From contig CAYRHN010000017.1 in the NCBI GenBank assembly GCA_964424115.1, forward strand, positions 16,579 to 80,578: a stretch of DNA of 64,000 nucleotides, given 5' to 3'. Below, in pieces: positions 45,387 to 61,390 of this stretch. The translations under genes and the position numbers were made by a program. The stretch comes from an uncultured Anaerolineaceae bacterium. Lineage in GTDB: Bacteria; Chloroflexota; Anaerolineae; Anaerolineales; Anaerolineaceae. Below the pieces are notes generated by a model. That model was not told the origin of the DNA. It did not search any database and saw nothing but the letters and a program-made list of their open reading frames with translations. How positions within the stretch are numbered: position 1 is the stretch's first letter; every line of letters begins with the position of its first letter.

Positions 45387-45389
45387 AAT

Positions 45390-47098: not shown

Positions 47099-48673
47099 AT
47101 GAATATGCCCAACTCCACCCATCTCGATCTACCGACCCTCGAACAATGGCTTTGGGACGCCGCCTGCCAGATCCACGGGCCGGTGGACGCGCCCAAGTAT
47201 AAGGATTACATCCTGCCTTTGATCTTCCTCAAGCGCCTCTCGGACGTCTTCGAGGATGAGGTGAATCGCCTGGCGGAGAGCTACGGCAGCCGCGAGGCAG
47301 CTGCATCCCTGGTGGAAGTGGACCATTCCCTAGTGCGCTTCTATTTGCCGCCCGCGGCGCGTTGGGACCGGATTGAGAAAGTAACCACCGGGCTGGGCCA
47401 GGCCATCACTGACGCGATGCGCGCCATCACCCGTGAGAACCCGCGCCTGTCAGGGGTGATTGATGTCACTGACTTTAACGCCACCACAGCCGGAATGCGC
47501 ATCATCGACGATGAGCATATCTATGCTCTGGTACAGGTACTGCGCCGCCATCGCCTGGGGCTGAAGGATGTGGAGCCGGATATTCTTGGCCGCGCCTATG
47601 AATACCTGCTGCGCAAATTTGCCGAGGGCCAGGGCCAATCTGCCGGGGAGTTCTATACTCCGCGCATGGTAGGCGTGTTGATGGCGCGCTTGCTCGATCC
47701 CCAACCCGGCATGACCAGTTACGACCCGGCCTGCGGTTCGTTTGGTTTGCAGATCAAGCTGCACCTGCGCCTGCTCGAAACCCACGGCGAGGAACTGGAA
47801 GGAGGCCATCGCCGCCTGCCGCCGAACGTGGCGCCCTTGCGCCTGTACGGGCAAGAGATCAACGCCACCACCTTTGCCATGGCGCGCATGAATGCCTTCA
47901 TCCACGATCTGGATACCCAGATTGCCCCCGACGACACCATGCGCCGCCCGGCTTTCTTGACCCCTTCCGGCGGGTTGCAGACCTTTGACCTGATCACCGC
48001 CAACCCGATGTGGAACCAGAAATTCGGCATGGATGTCTACGAAAACGACCCCTATGGGCGTTTTGCTTACGGAATTCCGCCCAGCGCGAGCGCGGATTGG
48101 GGCTGGGTGCAGCACATGGCGGCTTCGCTCTCCCCGCGCGGGCGCATGGCGGTAGTGCTGGATACCGGCGCGGTTTCGCGCGGCAGCGGCAACCAGGGCT
48201 CCAGCCGCGAGCGCGATATTCGCCAGAAGTTCGTTGAGGCCGATTTGGTAGAGGCAGTGATCCTGCTGCCAGAAAATTTATTCTACAATACTCCCTCGCA
48301 AGGAATCATTCTCATACTAAACAAAACTAAACCCCACCCTGGTGAAATTCTTCTGATAAACGCTAGTCACTCGTTTTTCAAGGGTCGACCTAAGAATGAA
48401 ATGAATGAAGAACATATAGCACAAATAACTGATGGTTATACTGCCTGGCAATTTAGAGAAGGGGCCTCAGCAGTCATCACATTGGGCGAGGCAGCACGCA
48501 AAGATTTTAACCTCAGCCCTAGCCGTTATGTGTCACAAAATGGGGATAATAAAGTCTTACCTTTGGATGAGGCTGTAGTACTATTACAAGAAACCGAAGA
48601 GGAAAGATCAGTAGTTCAAAATGAGTTAAATAAAATTCTTCAATCCCTTGGTTTTCAGAATAGGCAAGATTGA
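47099..48673 (+). CDS. hsdM: Type I restriction-modification system methyltransferase subunit HsdM
   Basis: The N-terminal HsdM_N block is LWDAACQIHGPVDAPKYKDYILPLIFLKRLSD. The SAM motif is YDPACGS and the catalytic motif is ANPMWNQKF (NPPF/W type). The gene overlaps hsdS. Confidence 0.9.
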   Translation: MNMPNSTHLDLPTLEQWLWDAACQIHGPVDAPKYKDYILPLIFLKRLSDVFEDEVNRLAESYGSREAAASLVEVDHSLVRFYLPPAARWDRIEKVTTGLGQAITDAMRAITRENPRLSGVIDVTDFNATTAGMRIIDDEHIYALVQVLRRHRLGLKDVEPDILGRAYEYLLRKFAEGQGQSAGEFYTPRMVGVLMARLLDPQPGMTSYDPACGSFGLQIKLHLRLLETHGEELEGGHRRLPPNVAPLRLYGQEINATTFAMARMNAFIHDLDTQIAPDDTMRRPAFLTPSGGLQTFDLITANPMWNQKFGMDVYENDPYGRFAYGIPPSASADWGWVQHMAASLSPRGRMAVVLDTGAVSRGSGNQGSSRERDIRQKFVEADLVEAVILLPENLFYNTPSQGIILILNKTKPHPGEILLINASHSFFKGRPKNEMNEEHIAQITDGYTAWQFREGASAVITLGEAARKDFNLSPSRYVSQNGDNKVLPLDEAVVLLQETEEERSVVQNELNKILQSLGFQNRQD

Positions 48674-48675
48674 TT

Positions 48676-49962
48676 ATGGTTGCACTGCAAAGTACCCAAT
48701 CTGCACTTAAGTTATCTAATCTTCCAAATAATTTCCCTTCTGGTTGGCGATGGCTAAAACTTGGCGATTTTGCTAATACAAAAAGTGGCGGTACTCCAAG
48801 AAGAGAAGTCCCAAATTTCTATGAGGGAATTATCCCTTGGATAAAATCAGGCGAACTTAAAGATACTACAATTACTCGATCCGAAGAACATATAAATCAA
48901 GAGGCGATAGATCATAGCAGCGCACAAATTTTCCCCAAGGGCACACTTGTAGTAGCTTTGTATGGAGCTACAGCTGGAAGAGTAGGGCTTTTGGAAATAG
49001 CCTCTGCAACAAATCAGGCTGTTTGTGCAGTATTTCCAGATAACAGCGCTATTCCTGAATATCTCTTTTATGCACTTATATACAGAAGGAACGATTTATT
49101 GAAAGAGCGATATGGGGGTGCTCAACCAAATATAAGTCAAACTGTATTACGTTCTTTTTATTTACCCATCCCCCCTCTGCCCGAACAACGCGCCATTGCC
49201 CATGTGCTGACCACCATTCGCCAGGCAATTGAGGCCAGTGAGCGTGTGATCGAGGCAACGCGTCAGCTTAAAAAGTCGACGATGAAGCATTTGTTCACCT
49301 ACGGCCCAGTGCCAGTGGACGAGGTGGATCGCGTACCGTTGAAAGAGACGGAGATCGGATTAGTGCCAGAGGGATGGAGCATTAGCCGTTTGGGTGATCT
49401 TATTGAAAAGCCAGAATATGGATATACAGCAAGCTCTTCATTAAAGGAAGTGGGGCCAAAATTTATTCGCATTACCGATATAAGTGATGAAGGAAGAGTA
49501 AATTGGAATTTAGTTCCGTATTGTGCTTGTTCAGAAAAAGAATTACCTAAATACATTGTAAAAAAGGGGGATATCTTGATCGCACGTATAGGAGCCACAA
49601 CAGGTAAAAGTTTTAGGGTTGAAGATTGTCCTCAAGCAATCTTTGCCTCTTATTTGATACGTTTACGTCCAAATATTGAATTGTTAGAAGATCGCTATTT
49701 GTACCAGTTTACGACAACAGACATTTATTGGAAGCAAATCAATTCAAGCAAAGGTGGGCGACTTAAAGGTGGTGTAAATATTCCCAACCTGCAAAACCTA
49801 TTAATCCCGTGTCCTAATAAAGAGGAACAAAACAATATTCAAGAAATTCTTGGTTCTATCGATGTCAAAATTATCGTTGAGACTAACCGCAAGAACGCTT
49901 TAGAATCACTATTCCAGAGCCTGCTGCATCACTTGATGACCGGAAAAGTGCGGGTGGGATAA
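48676..49962 (+). CDS. hsdS: Type I R-M specificity subunit HsdS (two target-recognition domains)
   Basis: The central conserved region is LPIPPLPEQRAIAHVLTTIRQAIEA and the C-terminal conserved region is LFQSLLHHLMTGKVRV. The ORF track starts at a TTG at 48670. Confidence 0.9.
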   Translation: MVALQSTQSALKLSNLPNNFPSGWRWLKLGDFANTKSGGTPRREVPNFYEGIIPWIKSGELKDTTITRSEEHINQEAIDHSSAQIFPKGTLVVALYGATAGRVGLLEIASATNQAVCAVFPDNSAIPEYLFYALIYRRNDLLKERYGGAQPNISQTVLRSFYLPIPPLPEQRAIAHVLTTIRQAIEASERVIEATRQLKKSTMKHLFTYGPVPVDEVDRVPLKETEIGLVPEGWSISRLGDLIEKPEYGYTASSSLKEVGPKFIRITDISDEGRVNWNLVPYCACSEKELPKYIVKKGDILIARIGATTGKSFRVEDCPQAIFASYLIRLRPNIELLEDRYLYQFTTTDIYWKQINSSKGGRLKGGVNIPNLQNLLIPCPNKEEQNNIQEILGSIDVKIIVETNRKNALESLFQSLLHHLMTGKVRVG

Positions 49963-49972
49963 GAGGGAAACC

Positions 49973-51292
49973 ATGCTCATTTTTGGCGCGGAGGAATTGC
50001 TGCTCAAGGAAAAGGTTACCCTCTACAATAACCTTGCCACTTTGGGGTCGCACTCCGGCCGTTTGTTGGCGGAATTGGAGATCTTCCCGGTTCCGCGCAT
50101 CACCTGGGATTTCGAAACATTTGAGCCAAGAGGTTGGGATGACGTATTTGATAATGGAATGATGCAAGCTTCTCTGCAAGGCAATCAATTCAAGATCGAA
50201 AAACCATACCCGGTCAATGATGGCTTTGTGACAATTCCAGGTCGTGAATCAAAGTGGTTAAGAGGGGTAGCAACCAAGGCAAGTATTGGCCCTGTGGATT
50301 TCGAAGCACATGAATTTCGCTTCCTGCTTCCAAACGTTTGCTTCCTCAGGCAAAATATCCCCGGCTTCGTTTCAGGGCTTCCGGGGCGTTCAATATCTGC
50401 CACAATTGATACTGAATGGCAAATTGAAATCAATATAAATGAAAACGCTTTCAAATGGCTGGAACCGAGTAACCGGAATATCGGCACTATGCTTTTAGCG
50501 ACCGGCCATTTAAAGCCTGTCCAACAAGATACACAATTCCTCTCGTTGCTTTCTTTCGAAAATACTTTAGAGCGCTTGTCTGACTTCTCACTCCTCTTAT
50601 CCTTTGCCAACGGAGGGTATTTAGGGCCTCTCTATGTAGAAGGTATATCCAACCAAGGGGATCTTAAAGCAGGAGCAATGATCCCTGTTTTTCGAGTTAC
50701 CCCCTTGGAGCAAATTGGATTGAGCTGGCTGGAATTTCAGAGCAATTTAACGAGCTATCTGGGCTGCTTTCCGGCTTTCGAACGCATGACACATTCCGAG
50801 CCGTGGGAAAATGATGAGTTCGACCTGATCCTTTCCTGGTATTTTCAAGCCATCCAACCTCAAAATGGTCAGATAGGCAAACCCTGGCCAGTGGTTGCCA
50901 ACGCCATCGGCACCGCCCTGGAGCGATCATTTAACACCATTATGGTCAGGGAATTAGGCTACCCCCAACCCAAAAACAAGAAAGGGTTGCCTCCCGAGAG
51001 TTTCCAACGCATTGAACAAATGCTGACCAGGATTGGGATCAAACGCGATGTGCCTCTAAATGACTATGACAACATACAAAATTTTGTAAATGTTCGTAAT
51101 GATGCCACCCACGGAGAAAACCGGGCAGATTTGTCGAGAGAGGAAATCTTTCGAACATTGGAGATGGGTATACAATGGTTAGAGGAAATATTATTGTGGC
51201 GTTTAGGGTATTCCGGAAAATACCGGAATCGGCTGATCAAGGTGGAAGATCAACCCAGATATGATTTAAGCACGAGAAAATCAGATTGGTAA
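49973..51292 (+). CDS. HEPN-domain protein (Rx4H motif), ApeA-like architecture, embedded in the Type I R-M operon
   Basis: The C-terminal FVNVRNDATHGEN carries R-N-D-A-T-H (Rx4-6H) and is flanked by predicted helices (LILSWYFQAIQ.., EIFRTLEMGIQWLEEILLW). The N-terminal roughly 300 aa are unknown and beta-rich. Confidence 0.55.
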   Translation: MLIFGAEELLLKEKVTLYNNLATLGSHSGRLLAELEIFPVPRITWDFETFEPRGWDDVFDNGMMQASLQGNQFKIEKPYPVNDGFVTIPGRESKWLRGVATKASIGPVDFEAHEFRFLLPNVCFLRQNIPGFVSGLPGRSISATIDTEWQIEININENAFKWLEPSNRNIGTMLLATGHLKPVQQDTQFLSLLSFENTLERLSDFSLLLSFANGGYLGPLYVEGISNQGDLKAGAMIPVFRVTPLEQIGLSWLEFQSNLTSYLGCFPAFERMTHSEPWENDEFDLILSWYFQAIQPQNGQIGKPWPVVANAIGTALERSFNTIMVRELGYPQPKNKKGLPPESFQRIEQMLTRIGIKRDVPLNDYDNIQNFVNVRNDATHGENRADLSREEIFRTLEMGIQWLEEILLWRLGYSGKYRNRLIKVEDQPRYDLSTRKSDW

Positions 51293-51307
51293 AACAAGGA
51301 GGAACCC

Positions 51308-52306
51308 ATGACCCTATGGATGGTTCGAGCAGGTCAACACGGGGAACGCGAAGATTTTGCACTTCAGAATAAAGTAGCCGTGATCGGCTGGGAAGAATTG
51401 GGAGATATTTCTGCTCTTCAAACGCGAAAAGAATTACGCCCCTTATTAGAAAAAGCATATCCCGATGAAAAACCTAACACTTTGCGCAATTGGGAAAGTC
51501 AGATCTGGCCTTTTATCCATGAAATTAAAATAGGCGATCTGATCGCCTTGCCATTAAAGAAACGGGCCGCAATTGCGATCGGCGAAGTCGATGGCGAAAA
51601 CCGCTATGAACCCAATAATCCCTTAGACGTCAGACACATTTTGCCGGTCAAAGGCTGGCAAGAATTTCCACGTACCAGTTTTGATACCGATTTATTGTAT
51701 TCATTAGGCGCTTTTATGACTGTGTGCCGGATTCAACGCAATCAGGCTGAAATCCGAGTCCGCGCCATGCTGGCAGGAAAAATCATCAGCGATGGTACAG
51801 AAGGCAAGGAAGAAAACATTCCCGACCTGGAGCAATTCGCCAGGGATCAAATTGTCAAATTTATTGAACGCAAATTTAAAGGCGATCGAATGGCTTATTT
51901 GGTTGAGGCAATTTTAATCGCCCAAGGTTACCAGACACGCGTTTCTCCCAAAGGTGCGGATGGCGGAGTAGATATTTTAGCTGGGCAGGGAAATCTGGGA
52001 TTTGGCATCCCACATCTGGCCGTTCAGGTCAAGTCTTCCGATGACCCTATTGACATCAAAATATTTAATGAATTGCAAGGCGCAATGAATAACTTTGGCG
52101 CAGAATATGGGCTGATTGTTACCTGGGGTGGATATAAAAGCACTGTAGAGAAAGAGGCTGCTCGCCATTTCTTTAAGATGCGCGTTTGGGATTCGGACAC
52201 CCTCGTGCGTATGATCCAGGAACATTACCATCAGCTTCCCGCTTCCACACAGGCTGAATTGCCGCTTAAACAAATTTGGATGCTAGTCCCCGAAGAAAAG
52301 GAATAG
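51308..52306 (+). CDS. mrr: Mrr-family restriction endonuclease (N-terminal DNA-binding domain plus Mrr_cat PD-(D/E)xK core)
   Basis: The N-terminus LWMVRAGQHGEREDFALQNKVAVIGWEELGD is typical of this family. The catalytic core is GADGGVDILAG..HLAVQVKS. Confidence 0.8.
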   Translation: MTLWMVRAGQHGEREDFALQNKVAVIGWEELGDISALQTRKELRPLLEKAYPDEKPNTLRNWESQIWPFIHEIKIGDLIALPLKKRAAIAIGEVDGENRYEPNNPLDVRHILPVKGWQEFPRTSFDTDLLYSLGAFMTVCRIQRNQAEIRVRAMLAGKIISDGTEGKEENIPDLEQFARDQIVKFIERKFKGDRMAYLVEAILIAQGYQTRVSPKGADGGVDILAGQGNLGFGIPHLAVQVKSSDDPIDIKIFNELQGAMNNFGAEYGLIVTWGGYKSTVEKEAARHFFKMRVWDSDTLVRMIQEHYHQLPASTQAELPLKQIWMLVPEEKE

Positions 52307-53017
52307 ATGGCCATGGAAATCATTGCCGGTTTGTTCTTGACCGCTCTTTACCAGCTTACCGAGAAAGTTTGGGAAAAAGGGCTGGATGCCGCTTGGGATC
52401 CATTACAAGAATCTCTCAAAAGCACCTTCTCGCGTTTGGCGGGAAAGGATCAGGAAACCAAACGTCGCGAGCAGTTTGCTGAAGCGTATAGAAAAGCCAT
52501 TCGCTACACCACCAAACGTGCTCAAAATCCTGAAGAGGCTGCCGAAATTTTAAGCGTTCTGGACAAAGGCATCCGTCCAACGGCTGTTGCCGTCCTGGCC
52601 GAAGAGGCTGCCAAAGTAGTGTTATATGCCGACTCCCCTGACATGGAACGCATGGCCCAAACCTGTCAGGAAAGTTTAAAATGGGATACATTCTGGCAGA
52701 ATTCCTTTGAACAAAAAACGCTTCCCGATACAAAGCGCATTGTAGAAATCTTATTGGCCTTTTTGTCCAACTTGCGGAAGTTTTTGATTGACCAATCCTC
52801 TTACAAAGAATTGACCCAACAAGAAATTCTTAAGACTTTGCAACGCATGGAAGAACGCGCACGTGAAGCCGTACCTTTTGACGACATTGAACGATATCTC
52901 GAACAGGTGATCCATCATTATGAAAGCTTGGATTTTGTTGGTATTCCAGAATTAAGTAACCGCCAATCGGTACGCATTGATGACATCTTCATCCATTTGC
53001 AAGCTTCATCGGATTAA
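52307..53017 (+). CDS. helical N-terminal module and pre-NACHT linker; same frame as the downstream NACHT ORF, from which one TAA separates it
   Basis: Its ATG directly abuts the mrr stop. The C-terminal YLEQVIHHYESLDFVGIPELSNRQSVRIDDIFIHLQA is the linker pattern that normally precedes the P-loop in bacterial NACHT proteins. Confidence 0.55.
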   Translation: MAMEIIAGLFLTALYQLTEKVWEKGLDAAWDPLQESLKSTFSRLAGKDQETKRREQFAEAYRKAIRYTTKRAQNPEEAAEILSVLDKGIRPTAVAVLAEEAAKVVLYADSPDMERMAQTCQESLKWDTFWQNSFEQKTLPDTKRIVEILLAFLSNLRKFLIDQSSYKELTQQEILKTLQRMEERAREAVPFDDIERYLEQVIHHYESLDFVGIPELSNRQSVRIDDIFIHLQASSD

Positions 53018-53041
53018 TTCCGGAACAGGAAAAAACCATTC

Positions 53042-55873
53042 ATGTCTGCGAATAATCCATCCAACCCATCTGGTGCCTCGAAACCTGTAGGACGGCCATC
53101 GCTTATTATCGGACTTGGCGGTACTGGACAATATGCAATTCAAAAATTTCTAAATGAAATCGGCAAAATAAACCAAAATGAAGGCATTAATCGCGACATT
53201 AAACCTTCAAACCTTCTAGTAATCGACACCGACGAAAGGAGCATCAGCGATTGGTTGCAGGAGTCAATCGAATCATCTCCAAAAAAACGCCGCGAAAATT
53301 ACCAAAAACCTAAAGCACGTATGACTATTCAAACGGCGCTCCAGGAATACCCCCTGCTGGTAGTTTTGGGAGACCCAGGTTCTGGCAAAACCACTTTGCT
53401 AAAATACATAACCCTTTGTTATGCCGAAAACAAGCTGGATCAATTAGGCGCTCAACGCAGGCGCCTGCCAATTTTTGTGCGATTGTATGATTACATTTCA
53501 CGCCGCTCCCAACAACAAAATAATTACTCCTTGGTAGATTATCTTTATACCCAGGCGCATGATAAATATATTCTCAACTTGCCACCGGGTTTTTTTGAAG
53601 ACGCGTTAACCAAAGGCGAATGTTGTCTATGCTTGGACGGGTTGGATGAGTTGGGTTCGCTGGACTTACGTCATGAAATGGTTGAAAGCATTCAAGCCCT
53701 GGCAACACGTTTTCCACGCAATCAATTTATCATTACCTCGCGTATTGTGGGCTACAGCGAAGCACCATTAAACAGCAAGATATTTACCCATTTAACCGTA
53801 TTGCCGTTTAGCGATGAGGATATTCAAAATTTTGTTCGAAAATGGTACTGGGCCCGCGAACCCGACCATGCGCAAGCTGAAGAATCTGCGCAATCGCTGA
53901 TCAAAACCATTCTAGAAGAACCGCGCATCAAGTTGCTGGCCACCAATCCATTGATGTTAACCATCATTGCCCTGGTACATCGAATTGAAGCCCAGCTCCC
54001 CAATGAACGAGTTAAGTTGTATGAAAAATGTGTTACTACTTTGGTGGATACCTGGTACCAAGCCAAAGGCATCAAATACCAAGATCAGCAGCGCCCCGCT
54101 TATATTTTCCGATATCGTTTCTTGGAATGGTTGGCTTATTGGATGCATTCGCAAGTAACCAGTTCGCGCCAAGCATATGAAATTCAAGAACATGAATTGG
54201 AAGACCTATTGGCAGGCTTTTTATTGGCTGAAACCACCTTGAATATCGGTAAGGAAAAAGCGCGCCAGGAAGTGCGCCATTTTGTGGAAACAGTTAAATC
54301 GCGCACCGGACTGTTGATCGAACGCGGCGAAAAGCTATACTCTTTCACCCATCTGACCTTTCAAGAATATATGGCGGCAGGTGAGATCGTAAAAAGATTT
54401 GATGAGTATTTTGAGAAAGAAAAGTGCTGGGCCGAGTTGGAGCCGCACCTGCATGAAGCTCATTGGCGTGAAGTAATCTTATTAGTATTAGGGCGATTAA
54501 ACACCCGAACAACGCTCACTACCTTTTTGGTAACAAAAATTCTTGATTATCCTGAACCAGAGGAAAAACTGCGCTATGCCAACTTGTTGTTGGCAGCCCG
54601 GATACTGGCAGACCACATAGCTGTAGATTTTGCCTTGAAAGAACGGATCTGGCATGAATTGGTTTTGTTAATGCGCATTAGTCCGGCAATTGCTGATCAG
54701 ATAATAACTCTTCTAATGCAATTTAAGGGCGAAGACGAAATCAAAACCATTATCTCCTTATTGGTTAAGTCCCTTCAGGATAATTCGATTTCTTCCAGTA
54801 TCCATTATCAAATATTATTTGCTTTCTATCAAAATAATATAACTGATCCACGTTTAAAACCGGTCCTGCAATCCATCATTTCCGAACCATCCCGTGAACC
54901 AGCCCTTCGAGCAGTTGCTGCATATATTTGGGGCGTCAAATATGATCTAACTGTAGCTCAACAGGAATTGACCGCAATTATTAAAGATCAGACTCTTCCC
55001 ATGGATGTATGCGGGATTGGTCTGGAATTTTTGGCCCAGTTAGGGAATCCAAGCCGATTGGTAATCGTCGAACTGGAAAAAATCTTGCGCAATCCGGTCT
55101 ATTCCAGCCGTATTCGATGCGCAATAGCAGTAGCCCTGATCCAATTAGGTCAGTTAAGTACTGGTTTGAAAGCATTGCAAAAACTTGCCATCACGCGTGC
55201 ACAGCCCACACCGGTCCGTGAACTGGCAATTAAGGCAATGGGAGCATACGGTAAGAACGATGTCGAGACCGGGCGGTCTCTTCTTTTGATGGCGGGAAAT
55301 AAACAAACTGAACTTGATTTGCGTATCGCCTGCTGTGAGGCGCTAGCCACGAATAATCAAACTGAAGCAGTGGTTTTAGTTTTGGACGGGATAACCAAGA
55401 AACAAGGCATAAAACCTGCTCAAATCATGCGGTTGGTTAGTATATTTGAAAGTCTTAAAGATACACAACGGACAATTAAGTATGTCTCGGAGCTAATGGA
55501 GGATAAGAAACTTCCGATCGAAACTCGCTGTTGGGCTGTACAGGTGCTGGTTAGACTAAACGAAACCGATCGGGCAGTTATTATCTTGAAGGCGCTTGAA
55601 AAGAAAGTTTTTCTTAGAGCGCAAGAAAAAATAGCCATTGCCAAGGCGTATATATCCATGAGCTATTTCGATCAAGCTTATTCGATTCTCTATAGTGTTG
55701 CCAATAACTCCTCCGCCAAGGATAAAGAACGCCTGGATGCAGTAGAATTACTTACCCGCATTGGCAGAGACGAGGGCATGGAAACGGTGCGGGCCGAAAT
55801 CTTTACCCGCTATAACCATTTGCGGTCAGGCGATAACGCAGAAACGCTCACCATAGGACAGGAAACCGAATGA
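53042..55873 (+). CDS. NACHT-domain STAND NTPase with C-terminal HEAT/ARM-like repeats (bNACHT/Avs-like)
   Basis: Walker A is LLVVLGDPGSGKTTLL and Walker B is CCLCLDGLDEL. NACHT downstream blocks are ITSR and LATNPLMLTIIAL. The C-terminal roughly 450 aa are helical repeats. Confidence 0.85.
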   Translation: MSANNPSNPSGASKPVGRPSLIIGLGGTGQYAIQKFLNEIGKINQNEGINRDIKPSNLLVIDTDERSISDWLQESIESSPKKRRENYQKPKARMTIQTALQEYPLLVVLGDPGSGKTTLLKYITLCYAENKLDQLGAQRRRLPIFVRLYDYISRRSQQQNNYSLVDYLYTQAHDKYILNLPPGFFEDALTKGECCLCLDGLDELGSLDLRHEMVESIQALATRFPRNQFIITSRIVGYSEAPLNSKIFTHLTVLPFSDEDIQNFVRKWYWAREPDHAQAEESAQSLIKTILEEPRIKLLATNPLMLTIIALVHRIEAQLPNERVKLYEKCVTTLVDTWYQAKGIKYQDQQRPAYIFRYRFLEWLAYWMHSQVTSSRQAYEIQEHELEDLLAGFLLAETTLNIGKEKARQEVRHFVETVKSRTGLLIERGEKLYSFTHLTFQEYMAAGEIVKRFDEYFEKEKCWAELEPHLHEAHWREVILLVLGRLNTRTTLTTFLVTKILDYPEPEEKLRYANLLLAARILADHIAVDFALKERIWHELVLLMRISPAIADQIITLLMQFKGEDEIKTIISLLVKSLQDNSISSSIHYQILFAFYQNNITDPRLKPVLQSIISEPSREPALRAVAAYIWGVKYDLTVAQQELTAIIKDQTLPMDVCGIGLEFLAQLGNPSRLVIVELEKILRNPVYSSRIRCAIAVALIQLGQLSTGLKALQKLAITRAQPTPVRELAIKAMGAYGKNDVETGRSLLLMAGNKQTELDLRIACCEALATNNQTEAVVLVLDGITKKQGIKPAQIMRLVSIFESLKDTQRTIKYVSELMEDKKLPIETRCWAVQVLVRLNETDRAVIILKALEKKVFLRAQEKIAIAKAYISMSYFDQAYSILYSVANNSSAKDKERLDAVELLTRIGRDEGMETVRAEIFTRYNHLRSGDNAETLTIGQETE

Positions 55874-58788
55874 TCTCTTCAGAATACTTGGCCGTACAAA
55901 AGCCTTTGATACGTTATGCCCGTGAAGCGGGTTGGACTTACCTTTCCCCAGATGATATTATGCGCCTACGTGGCGGGGAAGAACGCATACTTTTGGGAGA
56001 AATCTTCGTCAAACAGGCTCAACAACTTAATCCAAGTATTATAGATTTAGGGCGCGCGGAAGAACTGCGCAAACAGTTGGAACGGCTGAAGCCCTCCATA
56101 GAAGGCAACCAGGACGCCTGGGAATACCTGCGTGGCCTGAAGACTATCTTTGTCCCAGAACAAAGACGCGAATTAAATATCTCGCTGTTGGATGCACTGC
56201 ATTGGCAGAGTAACACATTTCATGTCACCGATGAATTTTCCTTCACCAATGGCAAATACCGCATCCGCCAGGATGTGGCCTTCTTCATAAATGGCATCCC
56301 AGTGCTGATGGTAGAAACCAAGGCTGCCACCAAATTGGAAGGTATTGCCGAAGCTTTTGAACAGGTGCGCCGTTACCACCGCGAAGGACCAGAATTGCTT
56401 TCCCTGCAACAAATTTTTACCCTCACCCATCTGGTTCAATATTATTATGGGGCCACCTGGAATTTATCGCGCAAAAATTTATATAACTGGCGTGATGAGC
56501 AGGCTGGGGTAGATTATGAAACGCTAGTTAAAACCTTCCTTGCCCCTCAACGCATGGTGCGTGTTCTGGCAGATTTCATCCTTTTCACCCGCCAGGATGA
56601 CCAACTCAGCAAGATCATCCTGCGTCCACACCAAATGCGCGCTGTGGAGCGCGCCGTACAACGCGCTGCCGATCCGCAAAAGCGCCGTGGCCTGGTCTGG
56701 CATACCCAAGGTTCTGGTAAAACTTTCACCATGATCACCATTGCTAAAAAACTGCTGGAAGAGCCACATTTTCAAAACCCCACCGTCTTGATGTTGGTTG
56801 ACCGCAATGAGCTGGAAACCCAGCTTTTTGGCAATTTAAGAGCTGCTGGATTTGAGTACGCCACCATTGCACGTTCCAAAGATCATCTAGTGGAACTGCT
56901 TGCTCAGGATCAGCGCGGCCTGATCGTCAGCATGATCCACAAATTTGATGACATTCCCGCCAATGTCAACCTGCGCAAAAATTTCATAGTCCTGGTGGAT
57001 GAAGCGCATCGCACAACCGGTGGTGATTTGGGAAATTACCTTATGGGGGCTTTACCCAATGCTACCTATCTTGGTTTTACCGGCACGCCAATTGATCACA
57101 GCGCCAAAGGTCAGGGCACTTTTAAAGTCTTTGGCCGCGACGATCCCAAAGGATACCTGGATAAATATAGTATCCAGGAGAGCATCAGTGATGGCACCAC
57201 CGTTCCCCTGCATTACACCCTGGCCCCCAATGAACTACGCGTAGACCGAGAAACTCTGGAACGTGAATTTCTTACCCTCAAAGAAACAGAGGGCGTCAGT
57301 GATATTGAAGAGCTAAACCGCATATTGGACAAAGCAGTCACCTTACGCAATATGCTCAAGAATCTTGATCGTATGACACGCATTGCTGCCTACATCGCCA
57401 ATCACTACCGCGAGGTAGTAGAGCCAATGGGCTACAAAGCATTCCTGGTAGCAGTTGACCGTGAAGCCTGTGCGCGGTACAAGGAATTGCTGGATAAAGT
57501 ACTTCCCCCTGAATACTCCGAAGTGGTATACAGCCCAGCGCACAATGACAGCGAAGATCTGGCGCGATATCATCTCTCCGAAGATCAAGAAAAGCAGGTT
57601 CGTAAGGATTTTCGCAACCCAGAGAAGCTGCCAAAAATTTTGATTGTCACCGAGAAATTACTCACCGGATTCGATGCCCCGGTTTTATATTGCATGTACC
57701 TGGATAAACCGATGCGTGACCATGTTTTGCTGCAAGCCATCGCACGCGTGAATCGACCGTACGAAAACGAATTTGGGCATCCCAAACCGGCCGGGTTTGT
57801 GTTGGATTTTGTTGGCATCTTTGAAAAACTTGAACAAGCCCTGGCCTTCGACAGCCAGGATGTGCAAGGAGCGCTGGCTGATCTGGATAAGCTCAAAGCA
57901 CGCTTTGCGACATTGATGCAAACCGCGCGTGACGAACCGCTGAAGCTGGTTGGATTCTATGACTCGCCAGATAAGGTGATCGAGAAAATTCTGGAACATT
58001 TCCGCGACGAGGAAATCCGCCACACTTTTTATCACTTCTTCAAAGAACTCGAAACGCTATACGAGATAATTTCACCAGACCCCGACTTACGTCCATTCTT
58101 GCACGATTACAACCAGGTGGCGCGTATGTATGCATTACTACGCTCCGCCTATGACAGCTTATTCATTGATCATGAATTAACTAGGAAAACTGCCGAATTG
58201 GTGCAAAAGAACACGGAAAGCGGAAACATCCAGGAAAGCATGGAAGTGTATGAGATCAATGAGCACCTTCTGGAAAAGCTGAATGCAGAAAGCAAGCCCG
58301 ATACAGTCAAGGTCTTCAACCTGCTTAAAAGCATTGCCGATATTGTCGATAAAAAGATGACTCAGGCCCCATACTTGGTTTCAATTGGTGAACGCGCCGA
58401 GGCAATTGCCCAGGCCTACCAACAGCGCCAGCTAGATACCCAGGAAGCCCTGCACCATCTTGAGGAATTGATCAACGAGGTCAACCAGGCCGAACGCGAA
58501 CGCGCCGCCACCTCACTAACTCCTATCGCTTTCACCGTGTATTACTTGTTGCGCAAAGCTGAGCGCGCTGAACCGGAACAACAAGCAATCCAAATGGCGG
58601 AAATCTTCAGCCGTTATCCGTATTATCGCTCCAACCCGGCCCAGGAACGTTCCGCAAAGCAAGAACTATACCGCGTTTTGATCCAGGCGGATACTGCAGC
58701 AGGTAAAACGCCGGACATTGAGACATTGAAAATTTTGGTGGATCAAATCTTTGCCGTTTCCATCCGCACCGGGAGTTCCCACGCATGA
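55870..58788 (+). CDS. hsdR: Type I restriction enzyme R subunit HsdR (SF2 helicase/translocase plus nuclease)
   Basis: Motif I is HTQGSGKTFTM and motif II is VLVDEAHRT. Further blocks are GFTGTP and QAIARVNR. The N-terminal nuclease region is DVAFFINGIPVLMVETK. The start overlaps the NACHT stop (ATGA). Confidence 0.9.
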   Translation: MISSEYLAVQKPLIRYAREAGWTYLSPDDIMRLRGGEERILLGEIFVKQAQQLNPSIIDLGRAEELRKQLERLKPSIEGNQDAWEYLRGLKTIFVPEQRRELNISLLDALHWQSNTFHVTDEFSFTNGKYRIRQDVAFFINGIPVLMVETKAATKLEGIAEAFEQVRRYHREGPELLSLQQIFTLTHLVQYYYGATWNLSRKNLYNWRDEQAGVDYETLVKTFLAPQRMVRVLADFILFTRQDDQLSKIILRPHQMRAVERAVQRAADPQKRRGLVWHTQGSGKTFTMITIAKKLLEEPHFQNPTVLMLVDRNELETQLFGNLRAAGFEYATIARSKDHLVELLAQDQRGLIVSMIHKFDDIPANVNLRKNFIVLVDEAHRTTGGDLGNYLMGALPNATYLGFTGTPIDHSAKGQGTFKVFGRDDPKGYLDKYSIQESISDGTTVPLHYTLAPNELRVDRETLEREFLTLKETEGVSDIEELNRILDKAVTLRNMLKNLDRMTRIAAYIANHYREVVEPMGYKAFLVAVDREACARYKELLDKVLPPEYSEVVYSPAHNDSEDLARYHLSEDQEKQVRKDFRNPEKLPKILIVTEKLLTGFDAPVLYCMYLDKPMRDHVLLQAIARVNRPYENEFGHPKPAGFVLDFVGIFEKLEQALAFDSQDVQGALADLDKLKARFATLMQTARDEPLKLVGFYDSPDKVIEKILEHFRDEEIRHTFYHFFKELETLYEIISPDPDLRPFLHDYNQVARMYALLRSAYDSLFIDHELTRKTAELVQKNTESGNIQESMEVYEINEHLLEKLNAESKPDTVKVFNLLKSIADIVDKKMTQAPYLVSIGERAEAIAQAYQQRQLDTQEALHHLEELINEVNQAERERAATSLTPIAFTVYYLLRKAERAEPEQQAIQMAEIFSRYPYYRSNPAQERSAKQELYRVLIQADTAAGKTPDIETLKILVDQIFAVSIRTGSSHA

Positions 58789-59096
58789 CCGAAATTGACG
58801 AGAAAGACTCCCTGCCCCTGGCGCTAGAGCAAATCGTTCCAGCGGAATTGTTTAAAGCCGAAGTGCGCGCCATGGCTGCTAAAATGGGAGTTGAACCGCA
58901 ATCCATCACCCTGCGCGCGATGAAACGCAAATGGGCCAGCTGCTCCAGCAAAGGAAACCTGACCTTTGATCTGGATCTATTGCGCCAGCCTGCTAATTTT
59001 AGGCGCAAAGTAATCGTGCATGAACTGCTGCACTTGAAAGTTCCAAACCACGGGAAACTATTCAAGGCTATGGAAGCGATGTATTTGGCCGAGTGA
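58785..59096 (+). CDS. short YgjP/DUF45-type (M48-like) metallopeptidase-motif protein
   Basis: The HExxH motif is in VIVHELLHLKVPNHG. It overlaps the hsdR stop (ATGA). At 103 aa it appears to be only the C-terminal part of the usual roughly 230-aa family. Confidence 0.55.
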   Translation: MTEIDEKDSLPLALEQIVPAELFKAEVRAMAAKMGVEPQSITLRAMKRKWASCSSKGNLTFDLDLLRQPANFRRKVIVHELLHLKVPNHGKLFKAMEAMYLAE

Positions 59097-59108
59097 AGGA
59101 GAAAGATT

Positions 59109-59429
59109 ATGAATGTCTGGAATGAATTGAAAAAGTTGGAAGGGCAAGAATTAGCCACATTGGACCGTGGACGCAGGTTTAAGGTGGAGAATGTCATTTC
59201 GCCCAAATTGGTTGTTTTGTTCTTATTCATACCGCAAAACAGCCGTTTAATTCAAGCTCCAGAAATCGAGGGGGCGTTCAAGGAACTAGAAAGAGAAAAA
59301 ACAATCACAAGAGGGATAATTCAAGAGAAATTTGCGCCGCGTAACTCTGCGTATGTGGCTGCCCTGCTTGCGGAATTGCCAAATGTCGAATATTCTCTCA
59401 ATCCGATTGCCTTACACTTAACCAAATAA
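59109..59429 (+). CDS. hypothetical small protein, last gene of the R-M operon
   Basis: The ORF starts 12 nt after the previous stop and is preceded by GGAGAAAG. No motif was recognised. Confidence 0.4.
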   Translation: MNVWNELKKLEGQELATLDRGRRFKVENVISPKLVVLFLFIPQNSRLIQAPEIEGAFKELEREKTITRGIIQEKFAPRNSAYVAALLAELPNVEYSLNPIALHLTK

Positions 59430-59434
59430 CAATT

Positions 59435-60214
59435 CTACTTCTTCCCATTCTTCCGATACAATCCCTCCGCCTCCAGGTCCTTAAAATCCTGCGTGATCGT
59501 CTGCCGGGAAACGTCCAATCGGCGACCATATTCGACATTGGTCAGGCTGGGATTCTGCTTAATCATGTCAAGTAATTGACGTCGCCGCGCTTTACGTTTT
59601 GCCTCTCGACCCGCCTGCAAACGCGCCTGATCTGCGTCAGACAACCCGTTATTTGACACTATTGTTTGACGGTCGGGATCAAGTGGATCAGTCACAATTT
59701 GACGTCTCATTTGACGCGCTTCTTGACGCGCTGCTTTACGGTCCTCGCGTTCCATGTTGATTGCCGCTAACCGGTGCCAGTGGCTGCGCCGCAGCGCTAC
59801 AACCATCGCGGCGGTTAAAGTCAATACAGGGAGCAAAAGTACTGCCAAATGTTTGGCATCCGGAATTACATCGAACAACACTGTGAGCAAAATGATACTG
59901 GCCAGGTAAACCACTACCGCTGCGATGGCCAGCTTCACTGGTGCTGGTTCGTTGCTTTTATGGCGTGTGCGGTTGTATTCCCACAATCTCAGCGCAACAT
60001 TGATCGAGGCGATCCCCAATGATTCGACGATCACGGCCATGATGACACCCAGCCACGGATCCCATGCTAAAAGCTTGACCGTCGCGCGGGCGATCAACAC
60101 AGCCGAGGGCAGCGGGGTGAGCCACGGCATCACACCAATAACCGCATCAATGAGGAAATCCTCCACCGCGCCTGCCGACTCCTTTACTCTGTTAAGTTTA
60201 TTTCCCAATCCCAT
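59435..60214 (-). CDS. membrane protein (about 4 TM helices) with a C-terminal helix-turn-helix domain
   Basis: N-terminal hydrophobic helices are followed by a charged linker and then LLDMIKQNPSLTNVEYGRRLDVSRQTITQDFKDLEAEGLY (a wHTH-like pattern). It lies 10 nt downstream of tniQ. Confidence 0.55.
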   Translation of the reverse strand: MGLGNKLNRVKESAGAVEDFLIDAVIGVMPWLTPLPSAVLIARATVKLLAWDPWLGVIMAVIVESLGIASINVALRLWEYNRTRHKSNEPAPVKLAIAAVVVYLASIILLTVLFDVIPDAKHLAVLLLPVLTLTAAMVVALRRSHWHRLAAINMEREDRKAARQEARQMRRQIVTDPLDPDRQTIVSNNGLSDADQARLQAGREAKRKARRRQLLDMIKQNPSLTNVEYGRRLDVSRQTITQDFKDLEAEGLYRKNGKK

Positions 60215-60224
60215 AAGACCTCCT

Positions 60225-61286
60225 CTATAAATCGGATACTAATCGCTTTACTTTCGAATACTGTAATAGAATCGTCTCCGGTATACCAGTCAGACCCACA
60301 ATAGATTCCATTGTGACTTTGATATTTCTTTGTCTCTGCGCTCGGATGAGACTGCTGATTTTGAAATAAAGGTCATTTTCTTTTCGTGAGATGTTATTCC
60401 CACGACTTGATAATCGATGATGTTCCCTTGGATTCAATCTGATTTGAAACAAATCTCGAAGCGTGATTCCAATTGCGTAAACGTATCGAATATAATCTTG
60501 AAAACAAATATCTTTCGCGTTAAGGATGCCGCATTCCAATAAAGTTAATGTGGCTGGGGGTAAGCCTAATGGGTCAGTGAGCGTAAGGTTATTCACATTC
60601 ATCAACATCCGCGCTTGATACAATTGCATTCCAATACGTTCACGAATCATCTCAACAGGTACCATCTCGATCTGGTTGGGGCGAAGAATGAACTCCAAAT
60701 CCAACCGCACCTGATGGCATCGGGCTATTTCCTCTAAGGTTAGCTCCTCCACCGGAGAATTCTCCAGATGAAATTCACAGGTGGGACATTTCCCAACTTC
60801 TGGAGGCAAACGCCAACTAACCAGTGGAATATATGCATTGCAATTTGAGCAACTATTCACCATGCGGCAACCATGCAAATCGCATCCGATCAATTCTTTG
60901 AAACGCCAGGTCAATCGATAATACATTTTTTCCGACAAGCAACGCGGGCAAAAATAAAGTGTGGGATGAAGAGCGCTGGAAAGGAAAGGGCGTAGCGCCT
61001 TACCGGCAATCCCGCGTCCAAAATTGGTCGCCAGGTAGTGAAAGGTCGTTTGCCGCAAATCCTCTTCTGTAAGATTTAACTGTTTGCTCAAACTGCAGTA
61101 CGGCTCTCGCGGATAATCATCTAAATGCCTTAGCGAGGTTGGATTTTTGTTGCATAACAACCAGTAAGTAATTTCCCTTATACTGTCCATCTCCTCATCT
61201 TTTGCCTCTCGTTGAATATAGCTTGAAAACGATTCAAACGGTTGGGGTTTTAAGTGACCCGCTACAACATCAAATACAAGCGACAT
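60225..61286 (-). CDS. tniQ: TniQ-family transposition target-selection protein
   Basis: The N-terminal LKPQPFESFSSYIQREAK matches the TniQ pattern. Cys clusters are CPRCLSE.. and CSNCNAY..CPTCEF. It follows tniB. Confidence 0.7.
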   Translation of the reverse strand: MSLVFDVVAGHLKPQPFESFSSYIQREAKDEEMDSIREITYWLLCNKNPTSLRHLDDYPREPYCSLSKQLNLTEEDLRQTTFHYLATNFGRGIAGKALRPFLSSALHPTLYFCPRCLSEKMYYRLTWRFKELIGCDLHGCRMVNSCSNCNAYIPLVSWRLPPEVGKCPTCEFHLENSPVEELTLEEIARCHQVRLDLEFILRPNQIEMVPVEMIRERIGMQLYQARMLMNVNNLTLTDPLGLPPATLTLLECGILNAKDICFQDYIRYVYAIGITLRDLFQIRLNPREHHRLSSRGNNISRKENDLYFKISSLIRAQRQRNIKVTMESIVGLTGIPETILLQYSKVKRLVSDL

Positions 61287-61390
61287 AGGGGAATTTTCTG
61301 CTCCTATTTATCCAAGATAAGTGGCTGGCAAAAACCCGAGGCGCGGGTGATTTTTTAGCGCTATTCACCGCAAGAAAACAGCCCCAACAT

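What the first reader, a model, noticed from the sequence alone, without database searches (positions are those of the whole stretch)
47099..59429. Type I R-M operon with four extra genes inserted between hsdS and hsdR
hsdM, hsdS, a HEPN protein, an Mrr-type nuclease, a two-ORF NACHT/HEAT NTPase, hsdR, a DUF45-like HExxH protein and a 106-aa ORF form one uninterrupted plus-strand array. Junctions are 0-24 nt gaps or 4-nt ATGA overlaps (48670-73, 55870-73, 58785-88). Single insertions in Type I operons, such as PrrC-type anticodon nucleases, are established. Three mechanistically different immunity modules stacked inside one hsd operon is unusual: an RNase-type HEPN, a modification-dependent nuclease, and a STAND NTPase. 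The arrangement suggests co-transcription, and possibly functional cross-talk in which backup suicide or sensor modules guard the R-M system.
Basis: partly seen in the sequence, partly recalled or inferred. Interest (0 to 1): 0.7.

Follow-up and report, generated by a model that had tools for sequence, protein, structure and literature searches.

The report
Defence genes nested in restriction operon
This is a real Type I restriction-modification operon with extra immunity genes nested between its subunit genes, but such nesting is common in this operon family and already described, so it is a crowded example of a known pattern, not a new kind of system.

Summary
The nine-ORF plus-strand array at 47099-59429 is real and the gene identities largely hold. 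hsdM, hsdS and hsdR look intact. ORF3 is a HEPN-type protein with an invariant RNxxxH motif. ORF4 is an Mrr-type nuclease whose model resembles the modification-dependent enzymes AspBHI and MspJI. ORF5 and ORF6 form a NACHT/HEAT NTPase, and a short YgjP-like HExxH protein follows hsdR.

Comparison with about 130 related loci changes the interpretation. In this hsdR lineage, 29 of 48 operons carry extra DNA between hsdM and hsdR. The inserts include HepT/MNT pairs, Schlafen-like genes, Mrr, RloA/B-like genes, GmrSD, Fic and a short Argonaute. One relative, L073, stacks four modules in six ORFs.

The Mrr gene is a co-inherited resident of the closest backbones, not a new insert. Only ORF3 and the NACHT gene are specific to this locus. 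Both families stand alone elsewhere, which argues against PrrC-style coupling to the R-M enzyme. The NACHT gene is a single ~1200-aa protein in relatives; here an in-frame TAA splits it, so it may be impaired.

The operon is cargo of a Tn7-like element that carries other defence genes. Embedding in Type I R-M loci is already published. Co-transcription is plausible but untested.

The parts
47099..48673 (+). hsdM, the Type I methyltransferase subunit. The gene caller starts it at 47105. It is compositionally mosaic: about 57-69% GC up to ~48250, then about 40%.
   Evidence: Pfam HsdM_N + N6_Mtase. PADLOC MTase_I 1e-225. The ANPMWNQ and DPxCGS motifs are conserved with relatives. GC profile. 76-80% identical to the hsdM of L009 and L125-L127.
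48676..49962 (+). hsdS, the specificity subunit with two target-recognition domains. The ORF is open from a TTG at 48670.
   Evidence: Methylase_S, two stretches. Start and overlap sequence. Identity to relatives is variable (24-54%), as expected for TRDs.
49973..51292 (+). ORF3, 439 aa, of the YopA_C family. It has a C-terminal HEPN-like domain (RNDATH at aa 375-380) and N-terminal beta-rich domains. It is a locus-specific insertion between hsdS and Mrr.
   Evidence: Sub-threshold HEPN_RiboL-PSP and HEPN_Apea hits. Precomputed PF27216. Invariant R-N-x3-H motif. AF2 pLDDT 89.7. Foldseek match to HEPN 2hsb with prob 0.99 and to Csm6. No DNA match in related hsd loci.
51308..52306 (+). ORF4, 332 aa. 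DUF8426 N-domain plus an Mrr_cat PD-(D/E)xK nuclease, equal to PADLOC PDC-S02. It is a resident of the hsd backbone and a likely Type IV (modification-dependent) enzyme.
   Evidence: Pfam Mrr_cat 2e-21. PDC-S02 2.6e-131. Foldseek top hits are AspBHI (2e-6) and MspJI. Same position in L125-L127, L015, L027, L073 and L088.
52307..53017 (+). ORF5, 236 aa: the N-terminal helical domain (NNH2-like) of the NACHT NTPase, ending at an in-frame TAA.
   Evidence: NNH2 6e-4, below cut-off. Aligns to the N-termini of fused ~1200-aa relatives.
53015..53017 (+). In-frame TAA that splits the NACHT gene. It sits in the variable linker just after the conserved DIFIHL motif and is followed by an AGGA and the ATG at 53042.
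   Evidence: The same gene calls appear in an independent Logan assembly, L001.
53042..55873 (+). ORF6, 943 aa: a NACHT NTPase module (Walker A GDPGSGKTT, Walker B CLDGLDE) with C-terminal HEAT-like repeats. Together with ORF5 it is a locus-specific insertion between Mrr and hsdR.
   Evidence: NACHT 5e-16; HEAT_2 below cut-off. Homologues found. No DNA match in related hsd loci.
55870..58788 (+). hsdR, 972 aa: the restriction/translocase subunit.
   Evidence: TIGR00348 4e-144. HSDR_N, SWI2_SNF2/ResIII and T1R_D3-like domains. The DEAH motif, Walker A and the D...ExK motif can be read in the translation. Same 972-aa length and 78-80% identity in L125-L127.
58785..59096 (+). ORF8, 103 aa: a short YgjP/DUF45-like HExxH protein (HELLH). 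It is a conserved companion of hsdR in this lineage.
   Evidence: YgjP-like 1.4e-22, profile positions 114-191 of 207. Present directly after hsdR in 77 of 80 loci.
59109..59429 (+). ORF9, 106 aa, function unknown. It is not part of the conserved hsd backbone.
   Evidence: No Pfam, NCBIfam, PADLOC, PHROG or PDB match. Absent from all related loci.
41054..46925 (-). Context: a divergent neighbouring gene set. DndB-like 45390-46925, unknown 44040-45386, D12 MTase 42901-44058, HEC-07-like 41054-42664.
   Evidence: HEC-07 1.8e-35.
59435..63980 (-). Context: transposition module. HTH/TM protein 59435-60214, TniQ 60225-61286, TniB/TnsC-like 61391-62611, TnsB-like (Mu-transpos_C) 62538-63980. The whole 36.1-64 kb stretch is ~42% GC in a ~61% GC genome.

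Best explanation
The locus is a Type I R-M operon of a widespread lineage (hsdM-hsdS-hsdR-short YgjP-like). The intergenic slots of this lineage are hot spots where self-contained defence genes are nested.

This copy has three additions:
- A Type IV-like Mrr nuclease (PDC-S02) that is co-inherited with the backbone.
- A HEPN-type YopA_C protein, placed between hsdS and Mrr. This is specific to this locus.
- A NACHT/HEAT STAND NTPase, placed between Mrr and hsdR. This is also specific to this locus.

Inferred mode of action: the modules act independently and in layers.
- The Hsd complex methylates self DNA and cuts unmodified foreign DNA.
- The Mrr/MspJI-like enzyme cuts DNA that escapes by base modification.
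- The HEPN RNase and the NACHT NTPase are abortive-infection backstops.

The NACHT gene is split by an in-frame TAA between its N-terminal helical (effector-side) domain and the NTPase-sensor part. It is therefore probably impaired, unless the two polypeptides reassemble.

The tight packing suggests that the nested genes ride on hsd transcription. The whole operon travels as cargo of a Tn7-like transposon that is itself a defence island.
For: Shown:
- Gene identities.
- 29 of 48 related operons have extra DNA between hsdM and hsdR. This locus, at 7.2 kb, is the largest, above four others over 5 kb.
- The census of inserts is dominated by defence and toxin families: HepT/MNT 8-10, Schlafen/HATPase_c_4 5, Mrr 4, then AAA_13, AAA_21+RloB, GmrSD, Fic and Piwi.
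- L073 stacks pAgo + Ymh-HEPN + Mrr + MNT/HepT.
- The three closest Mrr relatives sit in hsdM-hsdS-Mrr-X-hsdR-YgjP. Divergence is similar across hsdM (76-80%), Mrr (73-76%), hsdR (78-80%) and YgjP (81-83%).
- The blastn map shows a conserved backbone interrupted only at 49.4-51.3 kb and 52.3-55.9 kb.
- ORF3 and NACHT relatives are stand-alone elsewhere.
- NACHT relatives are fused single proteins.
- The Mrr model matches AspBHI and MspJI.
- The HEPN motif is invariant.
- Transposon and low-GC island context.

Literature: embedding in Type I R-M loci (10.1101/2024.01.29.577857; PMC11411939; PMC2610378; PMC3710099).
Against: - No expression or activity data exist for any gene here, so layered independent action is an inference from family knowledge.
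- The HEPN assignment is sub-threshold in Pfam, and the fold match is only at domain level (E 0.03).
- The Mrr model has pTM 0.49, and its Foldseek TM-scores are about 0.3, so the SRA-like reading of the N-domain is tentative.
- The split NACHT could still work as two chains.
- Only three contexts each were inspected for the NACHT family and for the closest Mrr relatives.
Confidence: 0.75

Rival explanations
1. Guarded R-M system. The HEPN and/or NACHT proteins would be held latent by the Hsd complex and fire when a phage anti-restriction protein disables it, as PrrC does with EcoprrI.
For: There is a precedent in PrrC/EcoprrI (PMC2610378; PMC3710099). The genes are tightly packed on one strand. 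In L073 a HEPN protein and Mrr occur in the same order, HEPN then Mrr then hsdR.
Against: ORF3 has no ABC-ATPase domain. 0 of about 40 other ORF3-family loci have hsd neighbours, whereas PrrC is almost exclusively embedded (10.1101/2024.01.29.577857). The sampled NACHT relatives are stand-alone. The closest hsd backbones lack both genes.
Confidence: 0.07
2. Decaying locus. The array is a frozen pile-up of horizontally acquired genes in transposon cargo, with some or all modules no longer functional.
For: An in-frame TAA splits a NACHT gene that is fused in relatives. Composition is mosaic: the hsdM 5' part is ~60% GC, hsdS is 41.5% and the inserts are 44-46%.
Against: All other ORFs are full length with intact catalytic motifs. 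hsdR is 972 aa, exactly as in relatives. The hsdM motifs are conserved, as are Mrr D/QxK and the HEPN RNxxxH motif. No frameshifts were seen. The sequence is identical in independent assemblies.
Confidence: 0.12
3. Selfish hitch-hiking. The nested genes are there mainly because insertion inside an addictive R-M operon secures their retention and expression, not because the combination gives coordinated immunity.
For: Different cassettes sit in the same slots of 78-80% identical backbones (L009 against L125-L127 against the window). Many inserts are toxin-antitoxin pairs.
Against: This does not exclude the layered-defence explanation, and it cannot be separated from it by sequence alone. Mrr stays linked over a divergence comparable to that of hsdR, which suggests a benefit from the pairing.
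Confidence: 0.06

Closest known systems
Defence genes embedded in Type I R-M operons: 'restriction-linked ORFs' rloA-H of Campylobacter jejuni, and 'guilt-by-embedding' (Payne et al. 2024)
   Same: Extra same-strand genes are nested between the hsd genes. The cassettes vary between related operons. The contents are nucleases, HEPN RNases, ATPases and TA modules. ORF4 matches PADLOC candidate PDC-S02, one of the PDC candidates that paper added to PADLOC.
   Different: This combination (YopA_C/HEPN + Mrr + NACHT/HEAT) was not seen in any of the ~130 loci examined. The inserted length is the largest in the sampled lineage.
V. cholerae VPI-2 Type I R-M with embedded TgvAB, and BREX with BrxU
   Same: A modification-dependent (Type IV-like) nuclease is nested inside a modification-based system, giving complementary cover of modified and unmodified DNA (PMC11411939).
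   Different: Here the Type IV-like gene is a single Mrr/MspJI-like protein, not a two-protein GmrSD-like system. Its activity is untested.
PrrC/EcoprrI and RloC anticodon nucleases
   Same: A HEPN-type RNase gene lies inside an hsd operon.
   Different: ORF3 lacks the ABC-ATPase N-domain, belongs to another family (YopA_C) and is normally not hsd-linked. There is no evidence of latency control by Hsd.
Bacterial NACHT (bNACHT) / antiviral STAND NTPases
   Same: A central NACHT module with intact Walker motifs, a C-terminal repeat (HEAT) sensor region and an N-terminal helical domain (NNH2-like).
   Different: An in-frame stop separates the N-terminal domain. No close match to tested bNACHT or EruA proteins: the NCBIfam EruA hit is 59.8 bits against a cut-off of 1000.
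Defence cargo of Tn7-like transposons
   Same: TniQ, a TniB/TnsC-like gene and a TnsB-like gene sit at one end, and the low-GC cargo is full of R-M and defence genes.
   Different: The element's ends and its attachment site are not in the window or could not be defined.

Membership tests
Type I restriction-modification system | HsdM with an N6-adenine MTase domain and the HsdM N-domain | tested here: met
   Pfam N6_Mtase 3e-81 and HsdM_N 7e-24. Catalytic NPxW and SAM-binding motifs are conserved with relatives.
Type I restriction-modification system | HsdS with two target-recognition domains | tested here: met
   Methylase_S, two stretches. PADLOC Specificity_I 1.6e-70.
Type I restriction-modification system | HsdR with an N-terminal PD-(D/E)xK nuclease plus an SF2 translocase | tested here: met
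   TIGR00348 481.7 bits against a cut-off of 284.55. HSDR_N plus SWI2_SNF2/ResIII.
Type I restriction-modification system | Sequence-specific methylation and ATP-dependent restriction | not testable with these tools
   Needs a methylome and restriction assays.
Embedded defence genes in Type I R-M (rlo / guilt-by-embedding) | Non-hsd genes nested on the same strand between hsd genes, varying among related operons | tested here: met
PrrC/RloC-type anticodon nuclease guard | ABC-ATPase N-domain fused to a HEPN ACNase domain | tested here: not met
   ORF3 has no ATPase or AAA_13 hit in Pfam, PADLOC or NCBIfam. The model's N-terminal part is beta-rich.
PrrC/RloC-type anticodon nuclease guard | Family predominantly embedded in R-M loci | tested here: not met
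   0 of about 40 other ORF3-family loci have hsd neighbours.
HEPN superfamily (ORF3) | Conserved Rx4-6H motif | tested here: met
   R375, N376 and H380 are invariant in 36 sequences.
HEPN superfamily (ORF3) | Profile match above the curated threshold, or a clear fold match | tested here: inconclusive
   Pfam HEPN_RiboL-PSP scores 20.1 bits, below the 28.4 cut-off. Foldseek finds 2hsb with prob 0.99 but E 0.03 and TMt 0.54.
MspJI/AspBHI-like modification-dependent (Type IV) nuclease (ORF4) | C-terminal Mrr-type PD-(D/E)xK domain | tested here: met
   Mrr_cat 2e-21. Conserved D218 and Q240-x-K242.
MspJI/AspBHI-like modification-dependent (Type IV) nuclease (ORF4) | N-terminal SRA-like modified-base-binding domain | tested here: inconclusive
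   The top Foldseek hits are AspBHI (2.2e-6) and MspJI (2.7e-5) over 314-396 columns. However, TM is about 0.3 and the model pTM is 0.49.
MspJI/AspBHI-like modification-dependent (Type IV) nuclease (ORF4) | Cleavage depends on DNA modification | not testable with these tools
   Needs biochemistry or challenge with phages carrying modified DNA.
PADLOC PDC-S02 candidate | Full-length match to the PDC-S02 profile | tested here: met
   PDLC04815 2.6e-131, residues 1-330 against profile positions 1-345 of 346.
Bacterial NACHT antiviral STAND NTPase | NACHT module with Walker A/B motifs plus a C-terminal repeat sensor | tested here: met
   NACHT 59.4 bits against a cut-off of 26.7. HEAT_2 25.4 bits, below the 27.7 cut-off. 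Motifs read.
Bacterial NACHT antiviral STAND NTPase | N-terminal (effector-side) domain on the same polypeptide | tested here: not met
   An in-frame TAA at 53015-17 separates it here. Relatives P0088, P0092, P0094, P0096, P0125 and P0154 are fused.
Tn7-like / Tn5053-like transposon | TnsB-like transposase, TniB/TnsC-like ATPase and TniQ | tested here: met
   Mu-transpos_C 2e-6. TniB 4e-16 and TniQ 8e-13.
Tn7-like / Tn5053-like transposon | Terminal repeats with transposase-binding sites and a target-site duplication | not tested
   The right end lies beyond the window. No clear left-end repeats were found at 35.8-36.6 kb.

The most novel reading that the evidence does not exclude
ORF3 would represent an uncharacterised family of ~450-aa proteins (Pfam YopA_C). 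The family is absent from PADLOC v2. It would act as a stand-alone abortive-infection RNase: a C-terminal HEPN domain (invariant RNxxxH) controlled by N-terminal beta-domains. Those domains weakly resemble Hcp, tail-tube and distal-tail (Dit) proteins and could sense phage tail or structural proteins. Its single embedding inside this hsd operon would be the 'guilt-by-embedding' evidence for a defence role.
Probability: 0.25. Interest if true: 0.5.

Novelty: new member of a known kind. Interest (0 to 1): 0.25.

Why it matters
The locus is a clear, well-resolved example of how a Type I R-M backbone picks up defence genes one slot at a time. A resident Type IV-like partner sits alongside two recent additions, and all of it travels on a transposon. 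It nominates two candidates for defence testing:
- the YopA_C/HEPN family, which is not in PADLOC;
- PDC-S02, whose model resembles MspJI and AspBHI.

It does not reveal a new principle. The value is in candidate genes and in an evolutionary snapshot.

Tried and rejected
1. ORF8 as a truncated DUF45. Rejected: the ~100-aa form is conserved after hsdR in 77 of 80 loci.
2. The NACHT two-ORF layout as a true two-gene system. Disfavoured: relatives are fused, and the stop lies in a variable linker.
3. The long linker at the start of ORF6 as a recombination scar carrying the 5' end of a tubulin-like gene. Only a weak Tubulin_2 hit (E 0.034). An exhaustive search of 1.84 billion representatives returned only chance matches to kinase catalytic loops. 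Unresolved and dropped.
4. Promoter and terminator scan. Counts are at or below shuffled expectation, so it is uninformative; a sigma-70 consensus may also not apply to this host.
5. Rfam scan of the whole window: nothing.
6. Sequence search of the PDB for ORF4 and ORF9: nothing. PHROGs for ORF3, ORF5 and ORF9: nothing.
7. Left end of the island: no convincing terminal repeats.
8. Source organism. No names were attached to the exact proteins. The species is not among the GTDB representatives; the best hsdR match is 78%, to Anaerolinea MAGs.
9. Insertion-junction sequences compared across relatives: no shared scars or repeats.

Full report
OBSERVATION

The window carries nine consecutive + strand ORFs between 47099 and 59429.
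- hsdM: HsdM_N + N6_Mtase.
- hsdS: two Methylase_S stretches.
- hsdR: TIGR00348 at 481.7 bits against a cut-off of 284.55, with HSDR_N and SWI2_SNF2/ResIII domains.
- ORF4: a 332-aa Mrr_cat protein.
- ORF6: a 943-aa NACHT protein with weak HEAT repeats.
- ORF5: a 236-aa ORF in front of ORF6 with a weak NNH2 (NACHT N-terminal helical) hit.
- ORF8: a 103-aa YgjP/DUF45-like HExxH protein.
- ORF9: a 106-aa ORF with no match in any library.

Junctions are -4 to +24 nt. One detail is wrong: the hsdM/hsdS overlap reads TTGA, and the probable hsdS start is the ATG at 48676. The other two ATGA overlaps are correct.

The hsdM catalytic and SAM-binding motifs are conserved with relatives. hsdR has the same 972-aa length as its closest relatives. 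Nothing suggests that the hsd genes are degraded.

THE THREE NESTED MODULES

ORF3 (HEPN-type).
- It hits HEPN models only below threshold.
- It belongs to a family of ~450-aa proteins that the databases tag PF27216 (YopA_C).
- In a 36-sequence alignment, R375-N376-x3-H380 is invariant. This is a classic HEPN Rx4H motif.
- A confident AF2 model (pLDDT 89.7) has no whole-protein match in the PDB.
- Its C-terminal helical part matches HEPN structures: 2hsb with prob 0.99, plus Csm6 and 4nqf.
- Its N-terminal beta-rich part weakly resembles Hcp, tail-tube and Dit folds. All these matches have E > 0.008, so they are leads only.

ORF4 (Mrr-type).
- It matches PADLOC candidate PDC-S02 over its full length (2.6e-131).
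- It belongs to a very large, well-conserved family, with more than 3500 hits.
- Its model's best PDB matches are the modification-dependent enzymes AspBHI (E 2e-6) and MspJI, aligned over both domains.

ORF5 and ORF6 (NACHT/HEAT).
- They are in the same frame, separated by a single TAA (53015-17) and eight codons.
- Searching with the concatenated sequence found many ~1200-aa single proteins that cover 97-100% of it (P0088, P0092, P0094, P0096, P0125, P0154).
- In the alignment, the stop falls in the poorly conserved linker just after the conserved 'DIFIHL' motif.
- The gene is therefore normally fused and is split here.
- An AGGA and an ATG follow the stop, so a separate NACHT-HEAT chain could be made. 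The N-terminal domain is nevertheless uncoupled from the NTPase.
- The same gene calls appear in an independent Logan assembly, so this is not an obvious assembly error.

COMPARATIVE CONTEXT: THE hsd LINEAGE

A scan of one genome per GTDB species with HsdR returned 80 loci. The best match is 78% identical, in Anaerolinea MAGs, and the source species itself is not represented.

ORF8. A ~100-aa ORF8 homologue directly follows hsdR in 77 of the 80 loci, and the other three contigs end there. ORF8 is thus a conserved short companion of hsdR, not a truncation. ORF9 is never present.

Extra DNA between the hsd genes. For 48 loci where both hsdM and hsdR are on the contig, I measured the distance from the end of hsdM to the start of hsdR.
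- 19 loci are at or below 1.7 kb, which is hsdS only.
- 29 loci are larger.
- 17 exceed 3 kb, 4 exceed 5 kb, and the maximum is 6.3 kb.
- The window, at 7.2 kb, is the largest, at the end of a continuous distribution.

What the inserts are. A Pfam census of 72 inserted ORFs found:
- MNT/HepT pairs, in 8-10 ORFs;
- Schlafen-AlbA_2/HATPase_c_4, in 5;
- Mrr_cat, in 4;
- AAA_13 (PrrC/RloC-like);
- AAA_21 + RloB, GmrSD, Fic, DUF559, KilA-N, Hypoth_Ymh (a HEPN family) and Piwi.

Other stacked loci.
- L073 (Ca. Kapaibacterium) has, between hsdS and hsdR, an unknown gene plus a short Argonaute, a Ymh-HEPN protein, an Mrr homologue (56% identical to ORF4) and an MNT/HepT pair. That is four modules in six ORFs over 5.1 kb.
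- L009, one of the closest hsdR relatives in this scan (78%), has PDDEXK_4, an unknown gene, AAA_21 and RloB in the same slot.

Stacking several mechanistically different modules inside this operon type therefore recurs.

WHICH GENES ARE INSERTIONS HERE

The three closest relatives of ORF4 (73-76% identical) all lie in the arrangement hsdM-hsdS-Mrr-[one or two small unknown genes or DUF559]-hsdR(972 aa)-YgjP(103 aa). In these loci the identities to the window are:
- hsdM 76-80%;
- Mrr 73-76%;
- hsdR 78-80%;
- YgjP-like 81-83%.

The Mrr gene has therefore diverged together with the backbone. It also sits directly upstream of hsdR in L015, L027 and L088, the last from an archaeon.

A blastn map of the array against all fetched loci shows conserved backbone at 47120-49370, 51300-52300 and 55890-59090. 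Nothing matches at 49400-51300 (hsdS TRD2 plus ORF3), at 52307-55870 (ORF5/6) or beyond 59097 (ORF9).

Relative to its nearest known relatives, this locus has gained two cassettes. ORF3 sits between hsdS and Mrr. The NACHT gene sits in the Mrr-hsdR slot, which holds other genes in the relatives.

Composition agrees with piecemeal assembly:
- the hsdM 5' 1.15 kb is about 60% GC;
- hsdR and ORF8 are 49-51%;
- hsdS is 41.5%;
- the inserts are 44-46%.

ARE THE NESTED GENES TIED TO R-M?

ORF3 relatives were examined in 4 genome-derived loci and 36 metagenome loci. None has an hsdM, hsdS, hsdR, Mrr or NACHT neighbour detectable by tblastn. Their contexts range from housekeeping genes to other defence islands.

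Three NACHT relatives on long contigs are also stand-alone.

This is the opposite of PrrC, which is almost exclusively embedded in Type I R-M (10.1101/2024.01.29.577857) and is silenced by the Hsd proteins (PMC2610378). ORF3 also lacks PrrC's ABC-ATPase domain. I therefore rate PrrC-style guarding as unlikely (about 0.07). It cannot be excluded without experiments.

WIDER SETTING

- The region from ~36.1 kb to the end of the window is ~42% GC in a ~61% GC genome.
- It ends in TniQ, TniB/TnsC-like and TnsB-like (Mu-transpos_C) genes. The operon is therefore cargo of a Tn7-like or Tn5053-like element.
- The divergent neighbours are a DndB-like gene, an unknown gene, a D12 methyltransferase and a protein that matches HEC-07, a validated embedded defence gene (1.8e-35).

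MECHANISM (inferred)

The best-supported reading is layered, independent defence.
- Type I R-M acts on unmodified DNA.
- The resident Mrr/MspJI-like enzyme acts on modified DNA. This parallels TgvAB inside the V. cholerae Type I operon and BrxU inside BREX (PMC11411939).
- A HEPN RNase and a possibly crippled NACHT NTPase act as abortive-infection backstops.

Tight spacing with Shine-Dalgarno-like sequences before ORF3, ORF4, ORF5, ORF6 and ORF9 fits expression from the hsd transcript. The promoter and terminator scan is uninformative, so co-transcription remains untested.

NOVELTY AND SCORE

Nesting of defence genes in Type I R-M operons has been known since PrrC (1990) and the C. jejuni rlo genes (2005, cited in PMC2610378). 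It was analysed for HEPN proteins in PMC3710099. It was systematised in 2024, with 17,432 embedded genes across BREX, DISARM and Type I R-M systems (10.1101/2024.01.29.577857).

This locus is a new, unusually crowded member of that kind. Its most useful products are candidates: the YopA_C/HEPN family, which has no PADLOC model, and PDC-S02 with an MspJI-like model. Interest is about 0.25.

Noticed in passing
window 47099-48673: hsdM is compositionally mosaic. It runs at about 57-69% GC, close to the host chromosome, up to ~48250, then drops abruptly to about 40% through its 3' end and hsdS. This suggests a recombination breakpoint inside hsdM that swapped the hsdS-interacting end together with hsdS.
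   Followed up: partly
window 53042-53350 (first ~100 aa of ORF6): The linker between the N-terminal domain and the NACHT module is ~50 aa longer than in relatives. It contains 'IIGLGGTG...' and 'NRDIKPSNLLVIDTDE'. There is a weak Tubulin_2 N-terminus hit (E 0.034), and an exhaustive search returned only chance kinase-loop matches. Its origin is unexplained.
   Followed up: yes
window 41054-46925 (- strand): A divergent neighbouring operon contains a DndB-like protein (511 aa), an unknown 448-aa protein, a D12-class adenine methyltransferase and, after a gap, a 536-aa protein that matches the validated defence gene HEC-07 (PADLOC 1.8e-35). It may be a further, undescribed modification-based system.
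   Followed up: partly
window ~36100-64000: A low-GC (~42%) island of at least 28 kb sits in a ~61% GC genome. It ends in TniQ, TniB and a Mu-transpos_C transposase on the - strand, so it is a Tn7-like or Tn5053-like element with defence cargo. The right end lies beyond the window and the left end is not sharply defined. A 1186-aa Big_7/PD40/PA14 protein (36434-39994) lies at the left edge.
   Followed up: partly
window 49973-50900 (ORF3 N-terminal ~300 aa): The confident AF2 model shows beta-rich domains. Their only structural neighbours are Hcp, phage tail-tube and distal-tail (Dit) proteins, and all matches are weak (E > 0.01). A HEPN effector fused to tail-protein-like domains might sense phage structural proteins.
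   Followed up: partly
L073:805-5919 (Ca. Kapaibacterium MAG WFXC01000043.1): A related hsd operon carries, between hsdS and hsdR, a short prokaryotic Argonaute (Piwi) with a 250-aa partner, a Ymh-HEPN protein, an Mrr/PDC-S02 homologue and an MNT/HepT pair. This stack is as rich as the one in the window.
   Followed up: partly
L125:3347-5420 and L127:2217-4290: In two of the three closest backbones, a divergent MJECL32/MJECL33 gene pair sits immediately upstream of hsdM. The window has the DndB-like operon in the equivalent position. This upstream slot may also be a variable defence position.
   Followed up: no
window 59109-59429 and 59435-60214: ORF9 (106 aa) has no homologue in any library or related locus. 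It abuts, tail to tail, a 259-aa membrane/HTH protein next to TniQ that might be a transposon regulator.
   Followed up: partly
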